Source: Lama glama (taxonomy: Eukaryota). From it: 64,000 bases of DNA. The DNA lies in assembly GCA_028534125.1 (NCBI GenBank), contig CM052816.1, forward strand, positions 56,608,001 through 56,672,000, in the 5' to 3' direction. The notes beneath the pieces were generated by a model. That model did no database searches and was not told where the DNA came from. It was given only the letters and a program-made list of their open reading frames with translations. Each line of letters opens with the position of its first letter. Position 1 is the stretch's first letter. The translations under genes and the position numbers were made by a program. Shown here in pieces: positions 25,881-52,020 of this stretch.

Positions 25881-26154
25881 TAGGTTTTGAATGAGGCACT
25901 ATCGATGTGCAGGGGAAAGAGACACAGAAAGTAATTAATAGCAGAGCAGCAGCCCCCTGAAGGAGGACTACGTGGAATAAACTGGATTGTGTTGCCTCGA
26001 GTCTCACATCTAGGCAAATGGGAGCAATTACCGGCACAGATGACAAAATGGACGGACGAGGCTGGATGTTTGGGCCCCACCTGACAACCAACTGATGGAA
26101 AGTGAATGAAAAAATAATCTGTCTTCTCTGGGAAGATGGTCTGGAACAGGGATC

Positions 26155-26730
26155 TGACTGAACAGAGCAGGACCCTGTGGGATCCTCCCTGATACGAATC
26201 CCTTCTGTGTCCCCCGTTTCTTGTTTGTAGGAAATAGGCTTCTTTCAGCCTCCTTGACCTTCTCTGAGTTCCAAAGGGTAGATTCAAACAGTTACTAATC
26301 AGGGAAGGGAGGGAATGCAGAAATGAAGGAGAAACAGTTGAGAAACAACAGTGCAGCCTTGGGGCAGGGTCCTGGTTCCTCCTCAAGGAATACACAGAAC
26401 AGTATATCTTTGAGTTCTTCTGCAGGAACTAAGGCCCCCCACCCGGGAGGAGGATGGTAGCTTCAGGCTGAGCACAAGATTCCTGGAGCACCGCCCTCTG
26501 ACCTCACCACCGGCCAATCAGAAGAAAATCACACACCCCGCAGCCCCCACCCCAGATTTTATCTATAAAACATTTTCCTCAGAAACTATTAAGGAATTCA
26601 GGTTTTTCGAGCATCAGTGACCCTTCCTCCTTGCTTGGCCCCACAATAAACCTTTTTTGCTCCAAACTTCAATGTTTCGGTTTGTTTGGCCTCACTGTGC
26701 ATTGGGCACACAAATTTTTGCTTGATAACA
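26155..26730 (+). mobile_element. ERV1-type solo LTR (A)
   Basis: TG...CA ends (tgactgaacagagcaggaccc ... ttgataaca), CCAAT near 26514, TATAAAA 26564-26570, AATAAA 26645-26650. Confidence 0.8.
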
Positions 26731-26736
26731 TGATTT

Positions 26737-27357
26737 TGAGACAGGAAGGAAGGGAACAGAGCACAACCATTAAAAGAATGACACCGCAATTTAGTACCAA
26801 AATGGTGGAAGATTCAAGCTAGACCTTGAGCTTCAATATACGCTCATTGAAATACAATAGCACGCTGAATGGCACTCCCACAGGTGCCAGGACTGTTTCA
26901 AGGCTGACCATAAAAGGTCAACAAGTGGGTGGTGGCCCAGTTCCTGGGACTCCCAACCCCTTCCCCAAAGTAGTTGGAATAATCCTCCCACTTGTTAGCG
27001 TATGAAGTTACCAAGCCCCTTAAAAACCAACCAACCCCACACATCAGACCCAATCTCATTTTTCCTAGCCAACCCCACACTCTTGAGTCTGCCGCTCTCC
27101 CGTCTGAGTAAGATGGCCCCCATTCTGCCTATGGAATGTGTATCTCCTAGTCCTTTCTCTTGCTTTCTGAGACAGCCAGTACTTTGTCGATGGAGTGTAC
27201 ATCTCTCTGAATAAATCTACTTTTACTCAACTACGTCTTGCTCTTGAATTCTTTACTGCATGAAGCCAAGGACCCTCACTTGATGGGGAACATCCCAGGG
27301 ACTCAGCCAAGACCTGGGACACAGCCATTCTCTGGTGCCCCATTTTTTCCTGTATCA
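26737..27357 (+). mobile_element. ERV1-type solo LTR (B), different sequence from A
   Basis: TG...CA ends (tgagacaggaagg ... cctgtatca), TATA-like TTAAAAA 27020-27026, AATAAA 27210-27215, U5-like ctcttgaattctttactgcatgaagccaaggaccc. Confidence 0.8.
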
Positions 27358-32480: not shown

Positions 32481-33651
32481 TCCATAAAAGACTGAAAACT
32501 ATATTGCATTAGCTGACCTCTGTCCCATAAATCAACATTAAATAAAATGCGGTGGAATTAGTAAATTATAAAGTGATCCATATGATGTGTGTGTGTTACA
32601 CATGTCACGTATGTTGCCTTTCATCTAAGATATTTCCTTCTTCAATGCACGTGCCAGAAAGATAGAGGTGCATGTAAGTGTTTAAACATTTAAATAGAAC
32701 CTATTCCCTTGTCTGAAAGGCATGATAGCGTCTCGCTCACAGAGCCAGACGTGTGGGGGATACTTTGCAAGCACGAGCTCCGCTATGTAAGGGCCCAGAG
32801 TTAAGGTTTTAAGTTTTTATTGGCCTGAGTAGGGCGGTTCAAGCCTTGAGGTTTTACGGCTCGGGCCATGTGGTTCGGGAGGTGCTGTTGCAGGGTGTGT
32901 GGGTTTGTGATGGCTCATGCGTGCACACGTGTGTGTGCATGGCTGGGTGTTTTCCAGAGTGGAACAAGAAGGATTAACTTTCAGCGTTTGGCTTGCCCTA
33001 ACCTATAGCATCTGGGCACTGGCTTTAAGTTCTCATAAAGTGAGCCCCCGGAGACTTGTTAAATAATTTATCCTCAACTTTGGAAGAGCAAAGGAATAAA
33101 GTGATTAAGAAAAATGGAAAGCCACATGATAATGTGCCATTGATGGGGCAGGGTTGTCTTGCACGGGGGTACATGGCAGGTGTGGGAGTGGCTGGCTTGG
33201 TCAGGGGAGGGGAGGGTTAGGCCTGGGTTCGGGGAGCCCTTGGAGCAGACCGCTCTAGACCTTATCCCCAGCAGCCACAGCAAAGAAAGTGAGAAAAGCC
33301 TCCATTCTCTACTCCAAATGGTCCCCAGTTTAAAACACACTGAGCCATGCTAATTTTAAGGCCTCTCAATATAACCATTTTATTTCATCCAGCTGTGAGG
33401 GCCGACTTTTGGCTTAAAAGGAGAGCCAGAGAGAGAAGGAGGGCAGAGCTGGAAAAATAAATCCACAGGATGCCTGTCAGTACCTGGTTTCCAGTGGGGG
33501 CATGGGAGCTGGAGCAAAGGCACGTGGGTGCTAGAAGACAGAGCACCTCCTGCTGACTTTAAACGACCTCCTTTCCTGCCCCCGCTGCCAGCAGCTAGCG
33601 CAGGAAAAGCCCTTCAGGCCTCGGTCGTGGTACTCGCACGCTCTCATTCCC

Positions 33652-33815
33652 CCCCCCCTTTTTTTTTTGTTTGAGTGAAGGTAGATTTATACAGAGAAAT
33701 ACATTGAAAGGCAGGAGAAAGGCCATGAGGTGTGGGGGCTGGGTGCTCAGATGAAAAGTAGGTACACATTCCATAGACTGAATGCGGGTCGTCTCTGAAG
33801 AGGGAGAGAGGGCAG
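33652..33815 (-). mobile_element. Poly(A)-tailed retrocopy of an ERV LTR R region (SINE-like)
   Basis: Poly(T) 33659-33668; TSD gctctcattccc at 33640-33651 and 33816-33827; TT/AAAA site; body similar to LTR B 27089-27230. Confidence 0.8.
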
Positions 33816-33907
33816 GCTCTCATTCCCTTTTAATAAAGACGCTTGAACATAGCTCACTCACTCCTCAAATACTCATCCATTCATGGAAACAGCTTCAAGG
33901 AGGCGGG

Positions 33908-34270
33908 GCTAGTCAGGATCTGTGGTTGCAAACAGTAGAAACTACTTCTAGCTAACTTAGGCTGAGAAGGAATTTACTGGAAGGAGATTGGATAGCTTGC
34001 AAAATTGATGAGAAGGCCACATGGAGAACTAGGCGTGGGCGATATACAGGTGCCGAGGAAGGCCAGATGCTAGATACACAGTCAGGGTCATGCCACAGGA
34101 AGGTCTGGACGTCACTGCAGCTTAACGTTGCTGGTCCTGCCAGAATTCATCTCTAAGTGTCCCATATTTCTCTGTATCACTCCCTTCAGATTCCAAGACC
34201 AGGGCAGCTGCATCCATTTCCACACGCCAGGGGCCAGTTTGCTGAGAGAGAAACTATCTGACCTGCTCCT
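33908..34270 (-). mobile_element. Old MaLR LTR fragment (MLT1-like)
   Basis: tagtcaggatctgtggttgcaaacagtagaaactacttctagctaactta...aaggaatttactggaagga. Confidence 0.6.
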
Positions 34271-37200
34271 GCTTTGAGATGAGAGGTAAGCCCTGCCTCC
34301 AGCATATCTCTGGGGATTCAGGTGTTGGGAAGGCAAAATTGACAGGTATTGACAACAGAGCTTTCTCTAAAATTGAGAATTCCCCCTTCCCAGAGATGGA
34401 TTAAGAACGAGAAGTTCCCAATATTGTAATGAGCCCAAAGACTGGTAGCGATATGGTCGGCATTTTGTACTTTCCAGGAGGCTTAGATTTCTTCGACCTG
34501 GTTTCAAAGGAGAGTCTCTTTGAGGCTGTTTGTCTAGGAAATTTAACATGAAGGTCTTTGGGCACATGCAGGTGTAGACCCTGTTGCTATGACATCCTTT
34601 CAAGGGGAGAAGGAAACAGAGTTGGAGAAGTTACATGCCTAGAAAATGGTGGTCCCTCTATGCAAGCAGCCTGGGTGACGTCACCCCATGATGAAAGTCA
34701 AAAGCAAGTGTTTGTCTCTTTAAGCTTCTCACCCGACATGGCATGAGTTAGGCTGAAGATTTAAAGACAGAGCCCAGGGTTTGATCTGGTGTCTCTACTC
34801 AACAAAATCCCATGGCAGGCCCCACAGCCTCGCCTACCACTTGGGGTGGGATTGGGGGAGGACGGTATTTCCCAGCCGTTTGCCTGCTTCCTCTGTTACC
34901 ATTTAATGGGAAGCCCTGAGGATATGAGGGGAAGGAAAAGTGCTCTAGGACTTGGAGACTCCGCCTTAGGTGAGCAACAGGATCCTGGGTCTATGAGCAG
35001 ACCTTTCTGGGCCTTAGTTTAAGAGGTGGGAGGAGAGCAAAAAACCCTCCCTGTTTTAAAATTATCTAAAGGACTGGGGATTTCAAATACAAAGTAGATT
35101 CCACGGTGGCTCAGAGGCTTTGGTGGCCCTAAAGGGAATAAGGAGAAGATGTAAACTCTAAGTGCACTGCCTTTTGAGGCCCAGAGTTTCCCATCGCTAG
35201 GATAAATACCAATTTGTTCTCAATTACTGAAGTGTATCTGACATGATAAGTGTCCACAGTGCCCCTCTCCCGTGGCTAATTCATTTTGTAGGAGCAATTC
35301 TTCTCCAGCTGAAGCATTTGCGTGAGATAAGATGGTTCTTATATAAAAAGCATGCCAAGTGTGGCCCTGGTTTAATAACAAAGTTGAAAATCCAATGGGG
35401 GAAGTTTAAGAAGAGTTCACTGAGACAAGTGAGCTTCCTGGGTGACAGTGTGCAAGGTGAAGGTTAAGGCAGCCCGGCTCAGATGTCAGTCGGATGGGCA
35501 GTGAGCAGTGAACAATGGCCCCCATTCCTCACCACCCACTCCTCAGCCACCCACCATCCCCGTCGCCTCCACCAAGCCTCCCAAAGTTAGTCCATCTGCT
35601 TGTTCAGGAAGACACCTGCGACTGACAAAACGGATATGATTCAATCAAGAACGTTCATTGCCACCTTATGTTAAGCAATGTGACCAAATAACTGGATGTT
35701 TGACTCAAGCATTCTATTTCTGTGTCCTACTGCAAGAGCCAATTTCTCAAAGTTCTTTCCCAGCCTGTTATAAGGGAGAGTGGCAGAAAACTTGACATTT
35801 GAACACATATTGTGTTTTGCAAAGCCTGTCCTTGGAGGCACTCCAGGCCATGGCAGAGACCTTTCCCAGGGCAGGAGGTGGGGATTCTTGTCTGCCCCTG
35901 CCCTGCCTTCTTTGGGGGCAACTCAGAGAGGCAGGGCTGGGGAGGAAGGGGTAGTTTAACTCTCATGCTGGTCTCTGGATATGTCTTCCTCAGCCAGGGG
36001 TCCTGATGAGCCCGGCTGGCAATGATGCCTGTCTCCTCCCATATTCCTGGATCTCTTGGACCAGTCCTTATTTTTAACACTCCATCCCTTGAATTCCTAA
36101 AAAGCTTGTAGTTGTCCGTCCTTACTTCTGATTTGAAGAGTAGGGCCACTGACCACTCAAGTGGTTCTCTTTTCCTTGTCTCATGTCAGTTGTTAACCAG
36201 ATTCTACTGGTGTAGAAGTATTGGTAGGGGTTCTGTTGCTGCCAATGTGGCAGACTATGTGTTCTGAAAAGCCCTCCTACTTCAGAATACCTAGAAATGC
36301 TGGGAAAACATAACAAACAAGAAAGTCAAGCAAACCCCAAGGGGCCAAAAATGAAGAGGGGGGCTATGACCCAGAGTGGGGAGCAAGTGCCAGGTCAGGC
36401 TGTGCTGAGGGTGTTGTGTGACTGTGGTGCCCTTGGGTGTGAACTTCAGGGGACAGGGGCTATGCAGGAAGAAAGGTGAAACTGAGACTCCTGTCACAGT
36501 TTGGGACTTCTAAAGTCAAAGTCAGATTGAGGGGGAACAAGGTGTCCTGGCAAAGAGGGGCACAACTCTGCCCACCTTCCCTTCCTTCTCCCCTTCTCAC
36601 ATCAGACTCTCCAGACAACGTGAGGAGCTTGGGGAGTGGGGGTCAGCATGTGATCAGCTCTGCTACAGGAGAAGAGGATGTTGGAAAACTTTTTAAATAA
36701 ATGGACTTTGTGTTGAACGCCTTCTTTCCTCCCTCTCTGAATCCTGTCCCACCTCCCAGCACCCCATCCCACCCATCACAAACAAGTGGAGATATTTTGC
36801 AGGCAGATGGAGGTCAGTGAAACCATCCTAAGGCACTAGTGAGGCTAAGGGGGTGGGGGGAGTTAAGACAGAGGAGTGGGGAGCCCATTCCTTTCCCCAC
36901 CCAACCCAGCTGCCTCCAGCAAACCCCAGAACCACTCTCCACTCCAGCTTCTGCCAACTTCTAGTTCCTCCCTAGAGCTTACCTCTGGGAGAACTAGGTA
37001 AGTATCCACAAATTTTACTTTGTTTATTTTGCAATTTGGAACTGTAAAATGATATATACTACAGGTTCATGAAGGTGTAATTTTGGAATAAATATTTTTA
37101 ATAAAACCCTTTAAATCTATTTCAGTATTTGGATTTAAATCATCTCTTAAAACTGAATACACAGGATAAATTATAGTCACAGGTCCCTCAATTTTCCATA

Positions 37201-39232: not shown

Positions 39233-39365
39233 TAAGGGAGGGACAGCTCAGTGGTAGAGTGCATGCCTAGCATACACAAGGTCCTGGGTTCAAGCCCCAG
39301 TACCTCCATTAAATAAATAGATGAATAAACCTAATTATCTCCCACTCAAAAATTAATTAAAAAAA
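39233..39365 (+). mobile_element. tRNA-derived SINE, camelid Vic-1-like
   Basis: agctcagtggtagagtgcatgcctagcatacacaaggtcctgggttcaagccccagtacc plus A-rich tail; TSD ttaaatagggatg (39220-39232) / ttaaataaggatg (39366-39378). Confidence 0.9.
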
Positions 39366-42569: not shown

Positions 42570-43520
42570 TCTTTATTTTGATACCATTTTAAATTTAAAG
42601 AAAATTTATAAAAATCATACAAAGACCTCTGTATACCTTTTACACAGATTCACCAGTTGTTTGCATTTTTGCCTCATTCGTTTTATCATTCTGTCATCTA
42701 TCTGTCTATAATATATAATAATATATAATATACATACATGCACTTTTTATATCTATACATACATGCATTTCCCCCCTAAACTCTTTGAAAGTAAATGGAG
42801 ACATTATGCTTCTAAATACTTCAGTGCATATTTCCTAAGGAGAAAGGCGTTCTCTTACACACAGTGCAATTATCAAATTCTTTTTAAAAATTAATGTCAG
42901 AATACAATTCTCTAAGCTATTTAAAGTCTTGTCAGCTGCCTCAGCAATGTCGTTCTTCATCCTGACATTGTTAATAGCACAGGCTAGTTACTTTCTAGGG
43001 TGTCCCTCACTTTGTTTTGTTTTGGGGTCTTTTGGGGGGGTAATTCGGTTTATTTATTTATTTATTGCACTGGAGGTACTGGGGATTGAACCCAGAACCT
43101 CATGCATGCCAGGCAGGTATTCCACGTCTGAGTTATACCCTCCCCCCAGGTGTCCTTCACTTTGGATTTGTCTGATTTTCCTTAGGATTGGATTCCGGTT
43201 ACGCAGTCTTGGCAGGAATGTCACAGAAGCGATGTGTTCTCAGCACATTGTCTTAGGAGGGACGTGATGCCAGTTTAGACTGTGTAGATAACTTGTTTCT
43301 CATCATGACTTCCCTTCTCCAGTTTTAGCATCCATTGATAATTTTATGAATCAATCATTTCTTGTGTATTTATAAGTTGTCATTCTAGTTAAAGAGAACT
43401 TTTCCTTCTTTCCCATTTGTCTATTTATTCATATCAATACAGAATCAGAACTCGCATTTTATTCAGTGGGTTATAATGTACTACTATCATTTATTTTGAT
43501 GCTCAAATTGTCCCAGATTT
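42570..43520 (-). mobile_element. Old L1 (L1MC4/5-like) 3'UTR, interrupted by a SINE
   Basis: ctaaatacttcagtgcatatttcctaag; atcatttattttgatgctcaaattgtcccagattt. Confidence 0.75.
43014..43148 (-). mobile_element. tRNA-derived SINE, camelid Vic-1-like
   Basis: ggaggtactggggattgaacccagaacctcatgcatgc...ctgagttataccctccccc; TSD ggtgtccctcacttt (42999-43013) / ggtgtccttcacttt (43149-43163). Confidence 0.9.
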
Positions 43521-50559: not shown

Positions 50560-52020
50560 ACCTTCAAAATGTCAGTGGGAAGAGCTCCGTAGACTCATCC
50601 CCCAGCAAAATGACCCTAACTAGTGAAAACTACTTTAAAAAGCAATCATATAAAGTTTCTGGAAATTGTCCTCAGGGCACACAGAAACATTTACTTGAGA
50701 AACTACTAAATCTTGGTAAGGGCAGTAAGATCTGCGGCCCTTGAGCCACAAGCCATCCCTCCCTCCTCCCACCTCTCCCGCACTCAGGGAGATGGGAACT
50801 CCACTCTGGGCAGGCGTGGCCAAGAAGAAGGGGAGGGACCCTCTCCCCTCATCTCCCAGTCAAGGGACACAGTGTCTCGCTGAGAGGGAACAGCCACCAG
50901 GGTTGCTCGTCCTCTTCAGCTCTGACTTGCAGGATAGGTTTCTGGCAGTGCGGCTGAGAGGCTGCTCCCTTCCTTCCTTCAATCCCCGACTCACAAGGGA
51001 GAGGTCCTACCTCAGACATGGCAGGGCAAGCATACTGGAGCTCCAGGTGCCCTCATCTCAGCCTGCTCCAAGGGTGGAGATTCCATGCTGGGAGAAACAC
51101 ACAGAGAAGACCGAAGCCCACTGCCCCTGCCCAGCACCCTGCTCCTAAGGCAAGGGTGCCACCCTCTTCCCAGGGACTCAGAGCTTTTGCCTGGGAGTAA
51201 GGCAGACCACAGGAACAGAGAGCTCTGAAGCGCTTCCCAAGGGAACTGACTTTATTTGAAACAGACGGTGGGGAAGTTCAAGCCTAAGGATGCTCTCAAA
51301 AGCGCTGGAAGTTTCGGTGGCAAGCAATTAAGAGGCAGCTGGTCGCTCTAGGAGCAAGACAAATTAAACTGCAGGCCAGCTGGTTCACCAGAGAGAGCAA
51401 GGGCAAGAGGTGGCTCAGAAAAGCCCTCCTGGGGCCAGAACAAACCTCAGCCTGCCCCTGCAAAGGTGCTGGATTTAATAGGATCAGGCTGAGGAGCAAT
51501 TCATGCCCTGGCATTGTCAAAAACAGTAGTGCAATCAGCCAGCAAGCAGAGGTGACCATCAGCTGGGTGGGATACCTAACGAGACAGACACCTTAATAGT
51601 CAAACCAAGGAAAAAACAGTCAAGGAGAGCCCTGTTTAGACCACTGCTAACCTCGGGTGGCTGTGTGCGTGACCAAGTCTCACCCTCTGGGAGGTGACGT
51701 CATAACGTCATACTATGGGGGAAGCAGATTTCGCTGAAAGGAACCAGCCAAATAAACAAGGAAACAGCACCAGAAACAAGCCCCGAAGGAGATCAGGATC
51801 CAAAGTAGCTGTTTTATATTTCCTAAAAATGTCCAGTTTTCAACAAAAAATTATGAGACAGGAAAGGAAACAACAAAGTATGACCCACACCCAAGGACCG
51901 AAGAAACAGAAACTGCCTGTGACAGGGCACAGATACTGGATTTAACAGACAAAGACTGCAAAATAAGAAAGGAAACTAGGCGATAAAGGAAGACATGGTA
52001 ACAATGTCTCATAGGTAATA
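50560..52020 (+). mobile_element. Ancient L1 5'UTR and start of ORF1 (L1M4/L1MD-like)
   Basis: aaagtttctggaaattgtcctcagggca...ctactaaatct; later aaaatgtccagttttcaacaaaaaattatgagaca and cagatactggatttaacagacaaagact. Confidence 0.65.

What the first reader, a model, noticed from the sequence alone, without database searches (positions are those of the whole stretch)
33652..33815. ERV LTR R-region transcript retroposed like a SINE (poly(A), TSD, L1 endonuclease site)
Seen: the minus strand reads CTGCCCTCTCTCCCTCTTCAGAGACGACCCGCATTCAGTCTATGGAATGTGTACCT...CCTTTCTCCTGCCTTTCAATGTATTTCTCTGTATAAATCTACCTTCACTCAAAC-A10. This aligns with LTR B in this window (27089-27230: CTGCCGCTCTCCC...AGATGGCCCCCATTCTGCCTATGGAATGTGTATCT...CCTTTCTCTTGCTTT...TCTCTCTGAATAAATCTACTTTTACTCAA). 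Similarity stops about 15 nt after the poly(A) signal, where a poly(A) tail replaces U5. There is no U3 and there are no TG/CA ends. The flanks are a 12-16 bp TSD (gctctcattccc, 33640/33816), and the minus strand 5' flank reads TT/AAAA. Established: poly(A), a variable-length TSD and TT/AAAA are hallmarks of L1 target-primed reverse transcription, not ERV integrase. Inference: a short Pol II RNA that starts and ends inside one LTR was mobilised in trans by L1. If multi-copy, this is an LTR-derived SINE-like family that repeat annotators would label as an 'LTR fragment'. The source is a relative of LTR B, since the middle segments differ.
Basis: partly seen in the sequence, partly recalled or inferred. 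Interest (0 to 1): 0.75.

Follow-up and report, generated by a model that had tools for sequence, protein, structure and literature searches.

The report
LINE-made copy of retroviral LTR segment
A 147-base piece of an old retroviral terminal repeat was copied back into the genome from RNA by LINE-1 enzymes, a known kind of event; it may span exactly the repeat's transcribed part, but whether it is a one-off or one of a family is untested.

Summary
On the minus strand, 147 nt resembling the LTR at 27089-27231 (100 of 133 aligned columns; 0 of 1000 shuffles reach the score) end 17 nt after a TATAAA hexamer in an A10 tail, between identical 12-nt direct repeats at a TT/AAAA site. This is L1-type target-primed insertion of an LTR-polyadenylated RNA, the anatomy described for HERV-W processed pseudogenes. 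The 5' end is open. It lies 70 nt behind a TATA-like box in the window's LTR, but that LTR carries a 38-nt duplication there; without it the spacing is 32 nt, a normal cap distance (chance about 5-10%, TATA call not unique). So a whole-R, cap-to-poly(A) RNA and a 5'-truncated longer RNA are nearly equally likely. It is not a SINE by the SINEBase definition (no tRNA/7SL/5S head) and carries no promoter. Verdict: real, a new member of a known class, with about 12% odds of a new multi-copy R-only family.

The parts
33669..33815 (-). LTR-derived body, 147 nt, homologous to the R-like part of LTR B
33686..33691 (-). poly(A)-signal position, reads TATAAA (AATAAA at the matching place in LTR B)
33659..33668 (-). 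A10 tail, replacing U5; its last four A may belong to the TSD
33652..33658 (-). seven extra G between tail and 3' TSD copy (G run expanded from 3 to 10, or altered tail)
33640..33651 (+). TSD copy at the element's 3' side, 12 of 12 identical to the other copy
33816..33827 (+). TSD copy at the element's 5' side (16 nt, to 33831, if the four A are counted)
33828..33833 (+). TTTT/AA, the L1 endonuclease consensus (TT/AAAA on the element strand)
   Evidence: consensus as stated in PMC2912911
26737..27357 (+). LTR B, a relative of the source LTR, not the source itself; TG...CA ends with a short terminal inverted repeat; no clear TSD of its own
27019..27025 (+). TATA-like box of LTR B nearest the R-like part (2 mismatches; one of 3 candidates)
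27031..27080 (+). exact 12-nt repeat with period 38 (27031-27042, 27069-27080) between the TATA-like box and the point matching the element's 5' end
   Evidence: 1 of 2000 shuffles reach 12 nt
27089..27231 (+). segment of LTR B matching the element, AATAAA at 27210-27215, T/GT-rich DNA after the matching end

Best explanation
A sporadic, promoterless retrocopy of about the whole R region of an ERV1-type LTR. Steps: (1, inferred) a germline-active LTR of a subfamily related to LTR B made a short Pol II RNA from its cap site to its own poly(A) site; (2, shown by anatomy) L1 ORF2p nicked TTTT/AA at 33828-33833, primed on the poly(A) tail and copied the RNA; (3, shown) second-strand repair left a 12-16 nt TSD; (4, inferred) the copy lacks U3, cannot transcribe itself and has since decayed (short tail, G-run expansion, TATAAA hexamer). 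It works like a processed pseudogene, not like a self-propagating SINE. The wider claim, an L1-made copy of some RNA that ended at this LTR family's poly(A) site, I put at about 0.95; the figure below is for the cap-to-poly(A), low-copy version.
For: Tail in place of U5 17 nt after the hexamer, TSD and TT/AAAA. LTR homology far above shuffles. The 5' end matches 27089, 70 nt after the TATA-like box at 27019; LTR B has a 38-nt duplication in between (1 of 2000 shuffles), and 70-38 = 32 falls in the 28-34 nt TATA-to-start range studied in PMC1779604 (passages); a uniformly placed break would hit that window 7 of 144 times, 14 of 144 if either register counts. Element and LTR B also differ by gain and loss of about 30-nt blocks in the middle, so unit number varies in this family. 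Solo LTRs outnumber proviruses at least tenfold (PMC13756887, passage).
Against: The source LTR was not found, so its unit number is assumed. The TATA call is not unique: 3 candidates in LTR B, and the one at 26909 has fewer mismatches; with it the element would start about 150 nt into R. The spacing argument was made after seeing the data. No extra G stands at the 5' junction, the first base outside the TSD is a pyrimidine where starts prefer a purine, and 3 of the last 4 TSD bases match LTR B just upstream of 27089 (chance 0.05), which leans to truncation. That cap-proximal poly(A) sites are used poorly is recalled, not checked.
Confidence: 0.38

Rival explanations
1. 5'-truncated retrocopy of a longer RNA that ended at this LTR's poly(A) site: proviral RNA (HERV-W type), a host mRNA or lncRNA using the LTR as its 3' end, an L1 3' transduction, or a composite element ending in an LTR piece as SVA does. 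Reverse transcription stopped after about 150 nt.
For: All hallmarks fit equally. Over half of HERV-W processed pseudogenes lack the 5' LTR, and an earlier data set had 0-0.5 kb as its commonest length class (PMC5016936 passages; its authors put part of that down to fragmented annotation). In LTR B as it stands the 5' end lies 36-42 nt past the expected start. 3 of 4 junction bases match; microhomology is commoner in truncated than in full-length insertions (PMC2912911).
Against: The break lands in a cap-like register (7-14 of 144 positions). Microhomology is weaker in trans-mobilised truncated copies than in truncated L1, and 3 of 4 against a 75%-identical relative is thin.
Confidence: 0.37
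2. A multi-copy family (100 or more) of R-only retrocopies with a shared 5' end, made repeatedly from one or a few strongly transcribed master LTRs: the first reader's SINE-like family.
For: Cap-like 5' end; clean TPRT anatomy; ERV1 LTR elements were abundant and recently active in camelids (PMC8605555 passages; that the window is camelid is recalled from its tRNA-Ala-like SINEs).
Against: No second copy in 64 kb, none in this scan's notes, none in a metagenome motif scan (2 hits, both chance); all are weak negatives. Copies have no promoter, and the RNA shows no special fold (z -0.01).
Confidence: 0.12
3. R-to-R collapse: a full-length proviral-RNA retrocopy (R-U5...U3-R-poly(A)) lost everything between its two R repeats, by recombination after insertion or by a jump of the reverse transcriptase, leaving a 'solo R' with tail and TSD.
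For: Gives exactly cap-to-poly(A) ends. HERV-W pseudogenes keep R at both ends, and LTR-LTR recombination is common. The mechanism is my inference.
Against: Needs two rare events; 150-nt repeats are poor recombination substrates (recalled); I found no description of such products.
Confidence: 0.08
4. Not an RNA-derived insertion: a decayed LTR remnant or a DNA-level patch whose tail and flanking repeat are coincidence.
For: The A run is short (10) and separated from the TSD by extra G; the hexamer is non-canonical; the empty site was not seen.
Against: Unique exact 12-nt repeat, unique among 26 A runs, TT/AAAA in the right place and orientation, homology ending at the expected cleavage point, no U3 or U5 in the flanks.
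Confidence: 0.03

Closest known systems
HERV-W processed pseudogenes (Grandi et al. 2016, PMC5016936, passages; Grandi and Tramontano 2017, PMC5537654, passages; Pavlicek et al. 2002 not held, known through these)
   Same: ERV RNA copied by L1; ends at the R/U5 border; poly(A) tail; TT/AAAA motif; TSD of 5-15 nt; no promoter.
   Different: No internal sequence and no U3 here, only about 147 nt of R; a different ERV family in a non-primate. PMC5537654 calls HERV-W the only human ERV group mobilised this way.
mRNA retrocopies / processed pseudogenes made by L1 in trans (Kojima 2010, PMC2912911, parts 1-2 of 5 and passages)
   Same: TSD near the 14-16 nt peak, endonuclease consensus site, tail.
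   Different: The template is LTR sequence, not a host coding mRNA; the parent transcript is unknown.
SVA and its SINE-R module (Raiz et al., PMC3287187, passages)
   Same: L1-mobilised, Pol II type, 3' end and poly(A) signal taken from a retroviral LTR.
   Different: SVA is a composite of kilobase size with hexamer, Alu-like and VNTR parts and many copies; none of these parts is seen here.
SINEs as defined in SINEBase (PMC3531059, section 4 read), e.g. camelid vic-1
   Same: Short, non-autonomous, A tail, TSD, dependent on a LINE enzyme.
   Different: No tRNA, 7SL or 5S head, no Pol III box match, copy number unknown.
Solo LTRs of ERV1 (LTR B recalls MER41/MER4-group LTRs; recalled, no call)
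   Same: Sequence origin.
   Different: No U3, no U5, no TG/CA ends, and a 12-16 nt rather than 4-6 nt TSD.

Membership tests
L1-made ERV processed pseudogene (HERV-W type) | 3' end at the R/U5 border with a poly(A) tail | tested here: met
   Homology to LTR B stops at about 27231, 16 nt after its AATAAA, and A10 follows.
L1-made ERV processed pseudogene (HERV-W type) | TT/AAAA insertion motif | tested here: met
L1-made ERV processed pseudogene (HERV-W type) | TSD of about 5-15 nt | tested here: met
   12 nt exact, 16 with the A run
L1-made ERV processed pseudogene (HERV-W type) | Colinear with proviral RNA (R-U5-internal-U3-R, or its truncated 3' part) | tested here: inconclusive
   Only R-like sequence is present; it cannot tell proviral RNA from any other RNA ending in the LTR.
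L1-made ERV processed pseudogene (HERV-W type) | Empty orthologous site with one TSD copy | not testable with these tools
SINE (SINEBase definition) | Short (under 1 kb) and interspersed | tested here: met
   164 nt with tail and extra G
SINE (SINEBase definition) | Head at least 60% identical to tRNA, 5S rRNA or 7SL over 60 nt, or shown Pol III transcription | tested here: not met
   Rfam at E up to 1 gave 1 match in 32500-35000, off the element; ARAGORN none here; no A- or B-box pattern on the sense strand (recalled patterns, and the B pattern also missed a control SINE).
SINE (SINEBase definition) | [quoted passage not shown] | not testable with these tools
   No genome held; 1 copy in 64 kb.
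Solo LTR (integrase-made) | U3-R-U5 with TG...CA ends and a 4-6 nt TSD | tested here: not met
   No U3 or U5 similarity in the flanks, TSD 12-16 nt; 4-6 nt as stated in PMC13756887.
R-only (cap-to-poly(A)) LTR retrocopy, proposed | 5' end at the source LTR's cap site | tested here: inconclusive
   70 nt from the TATA-like box in LTR B, 32 nt after removing one 38-nt unit; 3 TATA candidates; source LTR not in hand.

The most novel reading that the evidence does not exclude
A lineage-specific family of promoterless retroposons made of one LTR's R region alone: solo LTRs fire a roughly 150-nt capped, polyadenylated RNA that L1 copies again and again, so that many tailed, TSD-flanked copies share both ends and record the LTR's cap and poly(A) sites. 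Repeat annotation would file them as LTR fragments. I found no such family described in searches (open-licence full text only; Repbase and Dfam could not be searched).
Probability: 0.12. Interest if true: 0.7.

Novelty: new member of a known kind. Interest (0 to 1): 0.3.

Why it matters
As a single copy it is a tidy non-primate example that L1 mobilises ERV-LTR-terminated RNA beyond HERV-W, which reviews still call the only human group treated this way. If the 5' end is the cap site, the insert is a fossil of germline transcription that started and ended within one LTR, giving both RNA boundaries of an extinct LTR promoter. If many copies share those ends, some 'LTR fragments' in mammalian repeat annotation are really an unrecognised class of Pol II retroposons, which could be screened for in any mammal.

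Tried and rejected
Whole genome: none held. Other copies: none in the window; a 21-nt motif scan of metagenome contigs gave 2 loci, L001 and L002, whose similarity is confined to the motif (score 42 = the motif alone), so chance; this scan's notes hold nothing similar by sequence, place or words. Structured RNA: no Rfam match on the element, folding no better than shuffles (z -0.01). Middle segment: no significant source in LTR A, LTR B U5 or the duplicated unit (99, 168 and 76 of 500 shuffles reach the score); a weak match to 27140-27200 (12 of 500). A shared 36-nt stretch at 51850 is not a second LTR of this family. Gene context: 0 of 8 stop-free frames of 150 aa or more hit Pfam. Four short motifs searched in paper text: 0 papers. 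Supplements of the camelid TE paper PMC8605555 could not be read; its repeat library may already hold this LTR family or the short form. Pavlicek et al. 2002 is not held. Five listed runs with next to no shared words or not indexed were not used as evidence.

Full report
Observation. On the minus strand the locus reads: TT/AAAA, a 12-nt repeat (33816-33827), a 147-nt body (33815-33669), A10 (33668-33659), seven extra G, and the second copy of the 12-nt repeat (33651-33640). The body aligns to the LTR at 26737-27357 ('LTR B') over 27089-27230 with score 77; 1000 dinucleotide shuffles gave mean 25 and maximum 44, none reaching it. 100 of 133 aligned columns are identical. The two ends align best (31 of 39 and 26 of 32); in the middle the element has about 30 nt that LTR B lacks and LTR B about 27 nt that the element lacks (diagonals), so LTR B is a relative of the source, not the source. 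Nothing else in the window matches. The 200 nt beyond the 5' TSD score 21 against U3 and the 3' flank 16 against U5, no better than the shuffle mean, although that control used other lengths.

Is the insertion signature chance? No. The repeat is the only exact 12-mer direct repeat with three or more base types and 60-400 nt spacing in the 64 kb. Of 26 A runs of 8 or more on both strands, 1 has a perfect 12-nt TSD beside it (this one) and 1 a one-mismatch match. Counting the four A, the TSD is 16 nt, at the 14-16 nt peak for L1-mediated insertions, and the nick site is the TTTT/AA consensus (PMC2912911, parts 1-2 of 5). Homology ends 16 nt after LTR B's AATAAA, just ahead of T/GT-rich DNA, where a transcript would be cleaved. 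ERV integrase leaves 4-6 nt TSDs and whole LTRs (PMC13756887 passage). I put L1 target-primed reverse transcription of an RNA ending at this LTR family's poly(A) site at about 0.95.

Age and spread. 19 of the 24 runs listed hold 0.79-0.93 of the sampled words of 33000-34600; they carry four organism labels and come from 8 studies. Words found only in the filled allele are 12.3% of the total, so best shares of 0.93 (A, B) and 0.92 (C) are unlikely from empty alleles (p about 0.02 and 0.04), while 0.90 (D) does not decide (p 0.21). Twelve identical TSD bases set only a loose bound (probability 0.35 at 20 and 0.04 at 60 million years, with an assumed rate). The window's tRNA-Ala-like SINEs recall the camelid vic-1 family; that assignment is from memory, SINEBase naming vic-1 in camels.

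Where did the RNA start? This decides between the readings. LTR B has 3 TATA-like candidates upstream of its AATAAA (26769, 26909, 27019). From the nearest, 27019, the start is expected at 27047-27053 by the 28-34 nt range in PMC1779604 (abstract and passages). The element's 5' end matches 27089, 70 nt away: on its face a truncation about 40 nt into R. But LTR B has an exact 12-nt repeat with period 38 in that interval (1 of 2000 shuffles). With one unit removed the spacing is 32. A randomly placed break would fall in such a window at 7 of 144 positions, or 14 of 144 counting both registers. I recall that LTR B resembles MER41/MER4-group ERV1 LTRs, which have a single such unit; this comes from no call and is a lead only. 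Against the cap reading: the argument was made after seeing the data; the candidate at 26909 fits the consensus better (1 mismatch against 2); no extra G sits at the junction (seen in some full-length SVA insertions, PMC3287187 passage); and 3 of the last 4 TSD bases match LTR B just upstream of 27089 (chance 0.05), the kind of microhomology that is commoner in truncated insertions. The two readings come out close: short cap-to-poly(A) RNA, low copy, 0.38; truncated longer RNA 0.37. A third route to the same ends, collapse between the two R repeats of a full-length proviral retrocopy, is my inference (0.08).

Is it a family? Untested. There is 1 copy in 64 kb. A motif scan of metagenome contigs gave 2 loci, both chance. 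Look-ups in this scan's notes by sequence, nearby place and words gave nothing; the look-up by genome showed other L1-made retrocopies of odd RNAs in the same genome, unchecked here. These negatives are weak. Mechanism argues against self-propagation: the copy has no U3, no tRNA, 7SL or 5S head, no Pol III box match on the sense strand (a weak test) and no unusual fold. Any family would be repeated copying from master LTRs. I give it 0.12.

Comparison with what is known. HERV-W processed pseudogenes are defined by LTRs cut to R-U5 and U3-R, a poly(A) tail, TT/AAAA and a 5-15 nt TSD, make up 135 of 213 elements, and over half lack the 5' LTR (PMC5537654 and PMC5016936, passages; PMC3031232 passages). 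The element meets the tail, site and TSD criteria; colinearity with proviral RNA cannot be judged from R alone. It works like a processed pseudogene. It is not a SINE under SINEBase (section 4): the head criterion fails and copy number is unknown. SVA shows that an LTR-derived 3' module can ride L1 in many copies, but no other SVA-like part is present. A camelid TE survey reports many short ERV1 elements in alpaca (PMC8605555 passages); its supplements could not be read and may bear on novelty. I found no description of R-only LTR retrocopies in searches (listings, open-licence papers only); Pavlicek et al. 2002 was not held, and Repbase and Dfam could not be consulted. PMC3747384 was seen in passages only.

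Context. No protein family was found in the 8 stop-free frames of 150 aa or more, so I cannot place the insert in a gene; short exons were not searched for.

Verdict. A real L1-made retrocopy of an ERV LTR's R-like segment, a new member of a known class. The cap-like 5' end makes it a little more than routine, and one genome-wide BLAST would settle whether it is a one-off, a truncation or a family. Interest 0.3; novel case 0.12 probability, 0.7 if true.

Noticed in passing
window 6777-6852 (-): tRNA-Arg(TCG) called by ARAGORN, intact-looking, followed by T-rich DNA and inside the most CpG-rich kilobase of the window (obs/exp 0.65); probably a real tRNA gene.
   Followed up: partly
window about 26150-26736 and 26737-27357 (+): Two unrelated LTRs lie head to tail with no internal sequence between them; the first has a perfect TATAAAA at 26564 and AATAAA at 26645; neither TSD was resolved.
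   Followed up: partly
window 33649-33658: G10 run (element strand) where the other TSD copy has G3.
   Followed up: no
window 27031-27205: LTR B is built of short internal duplications: period 38 at 27031/27069 and period 59 at 27126-27146/27185-27205.
   Followed up: partly
window about 1107-1216, 39240-39308, 43039-43148: Three tRNA-Ala-like SINE copies, recalled as camelid vic-1.
   Followed up: no
window about 33910-34030: An older, MaLR-like (MLT1-type, recalled) remnant begins about 80 nt beyond the 5' TSD.
   Followed up: no
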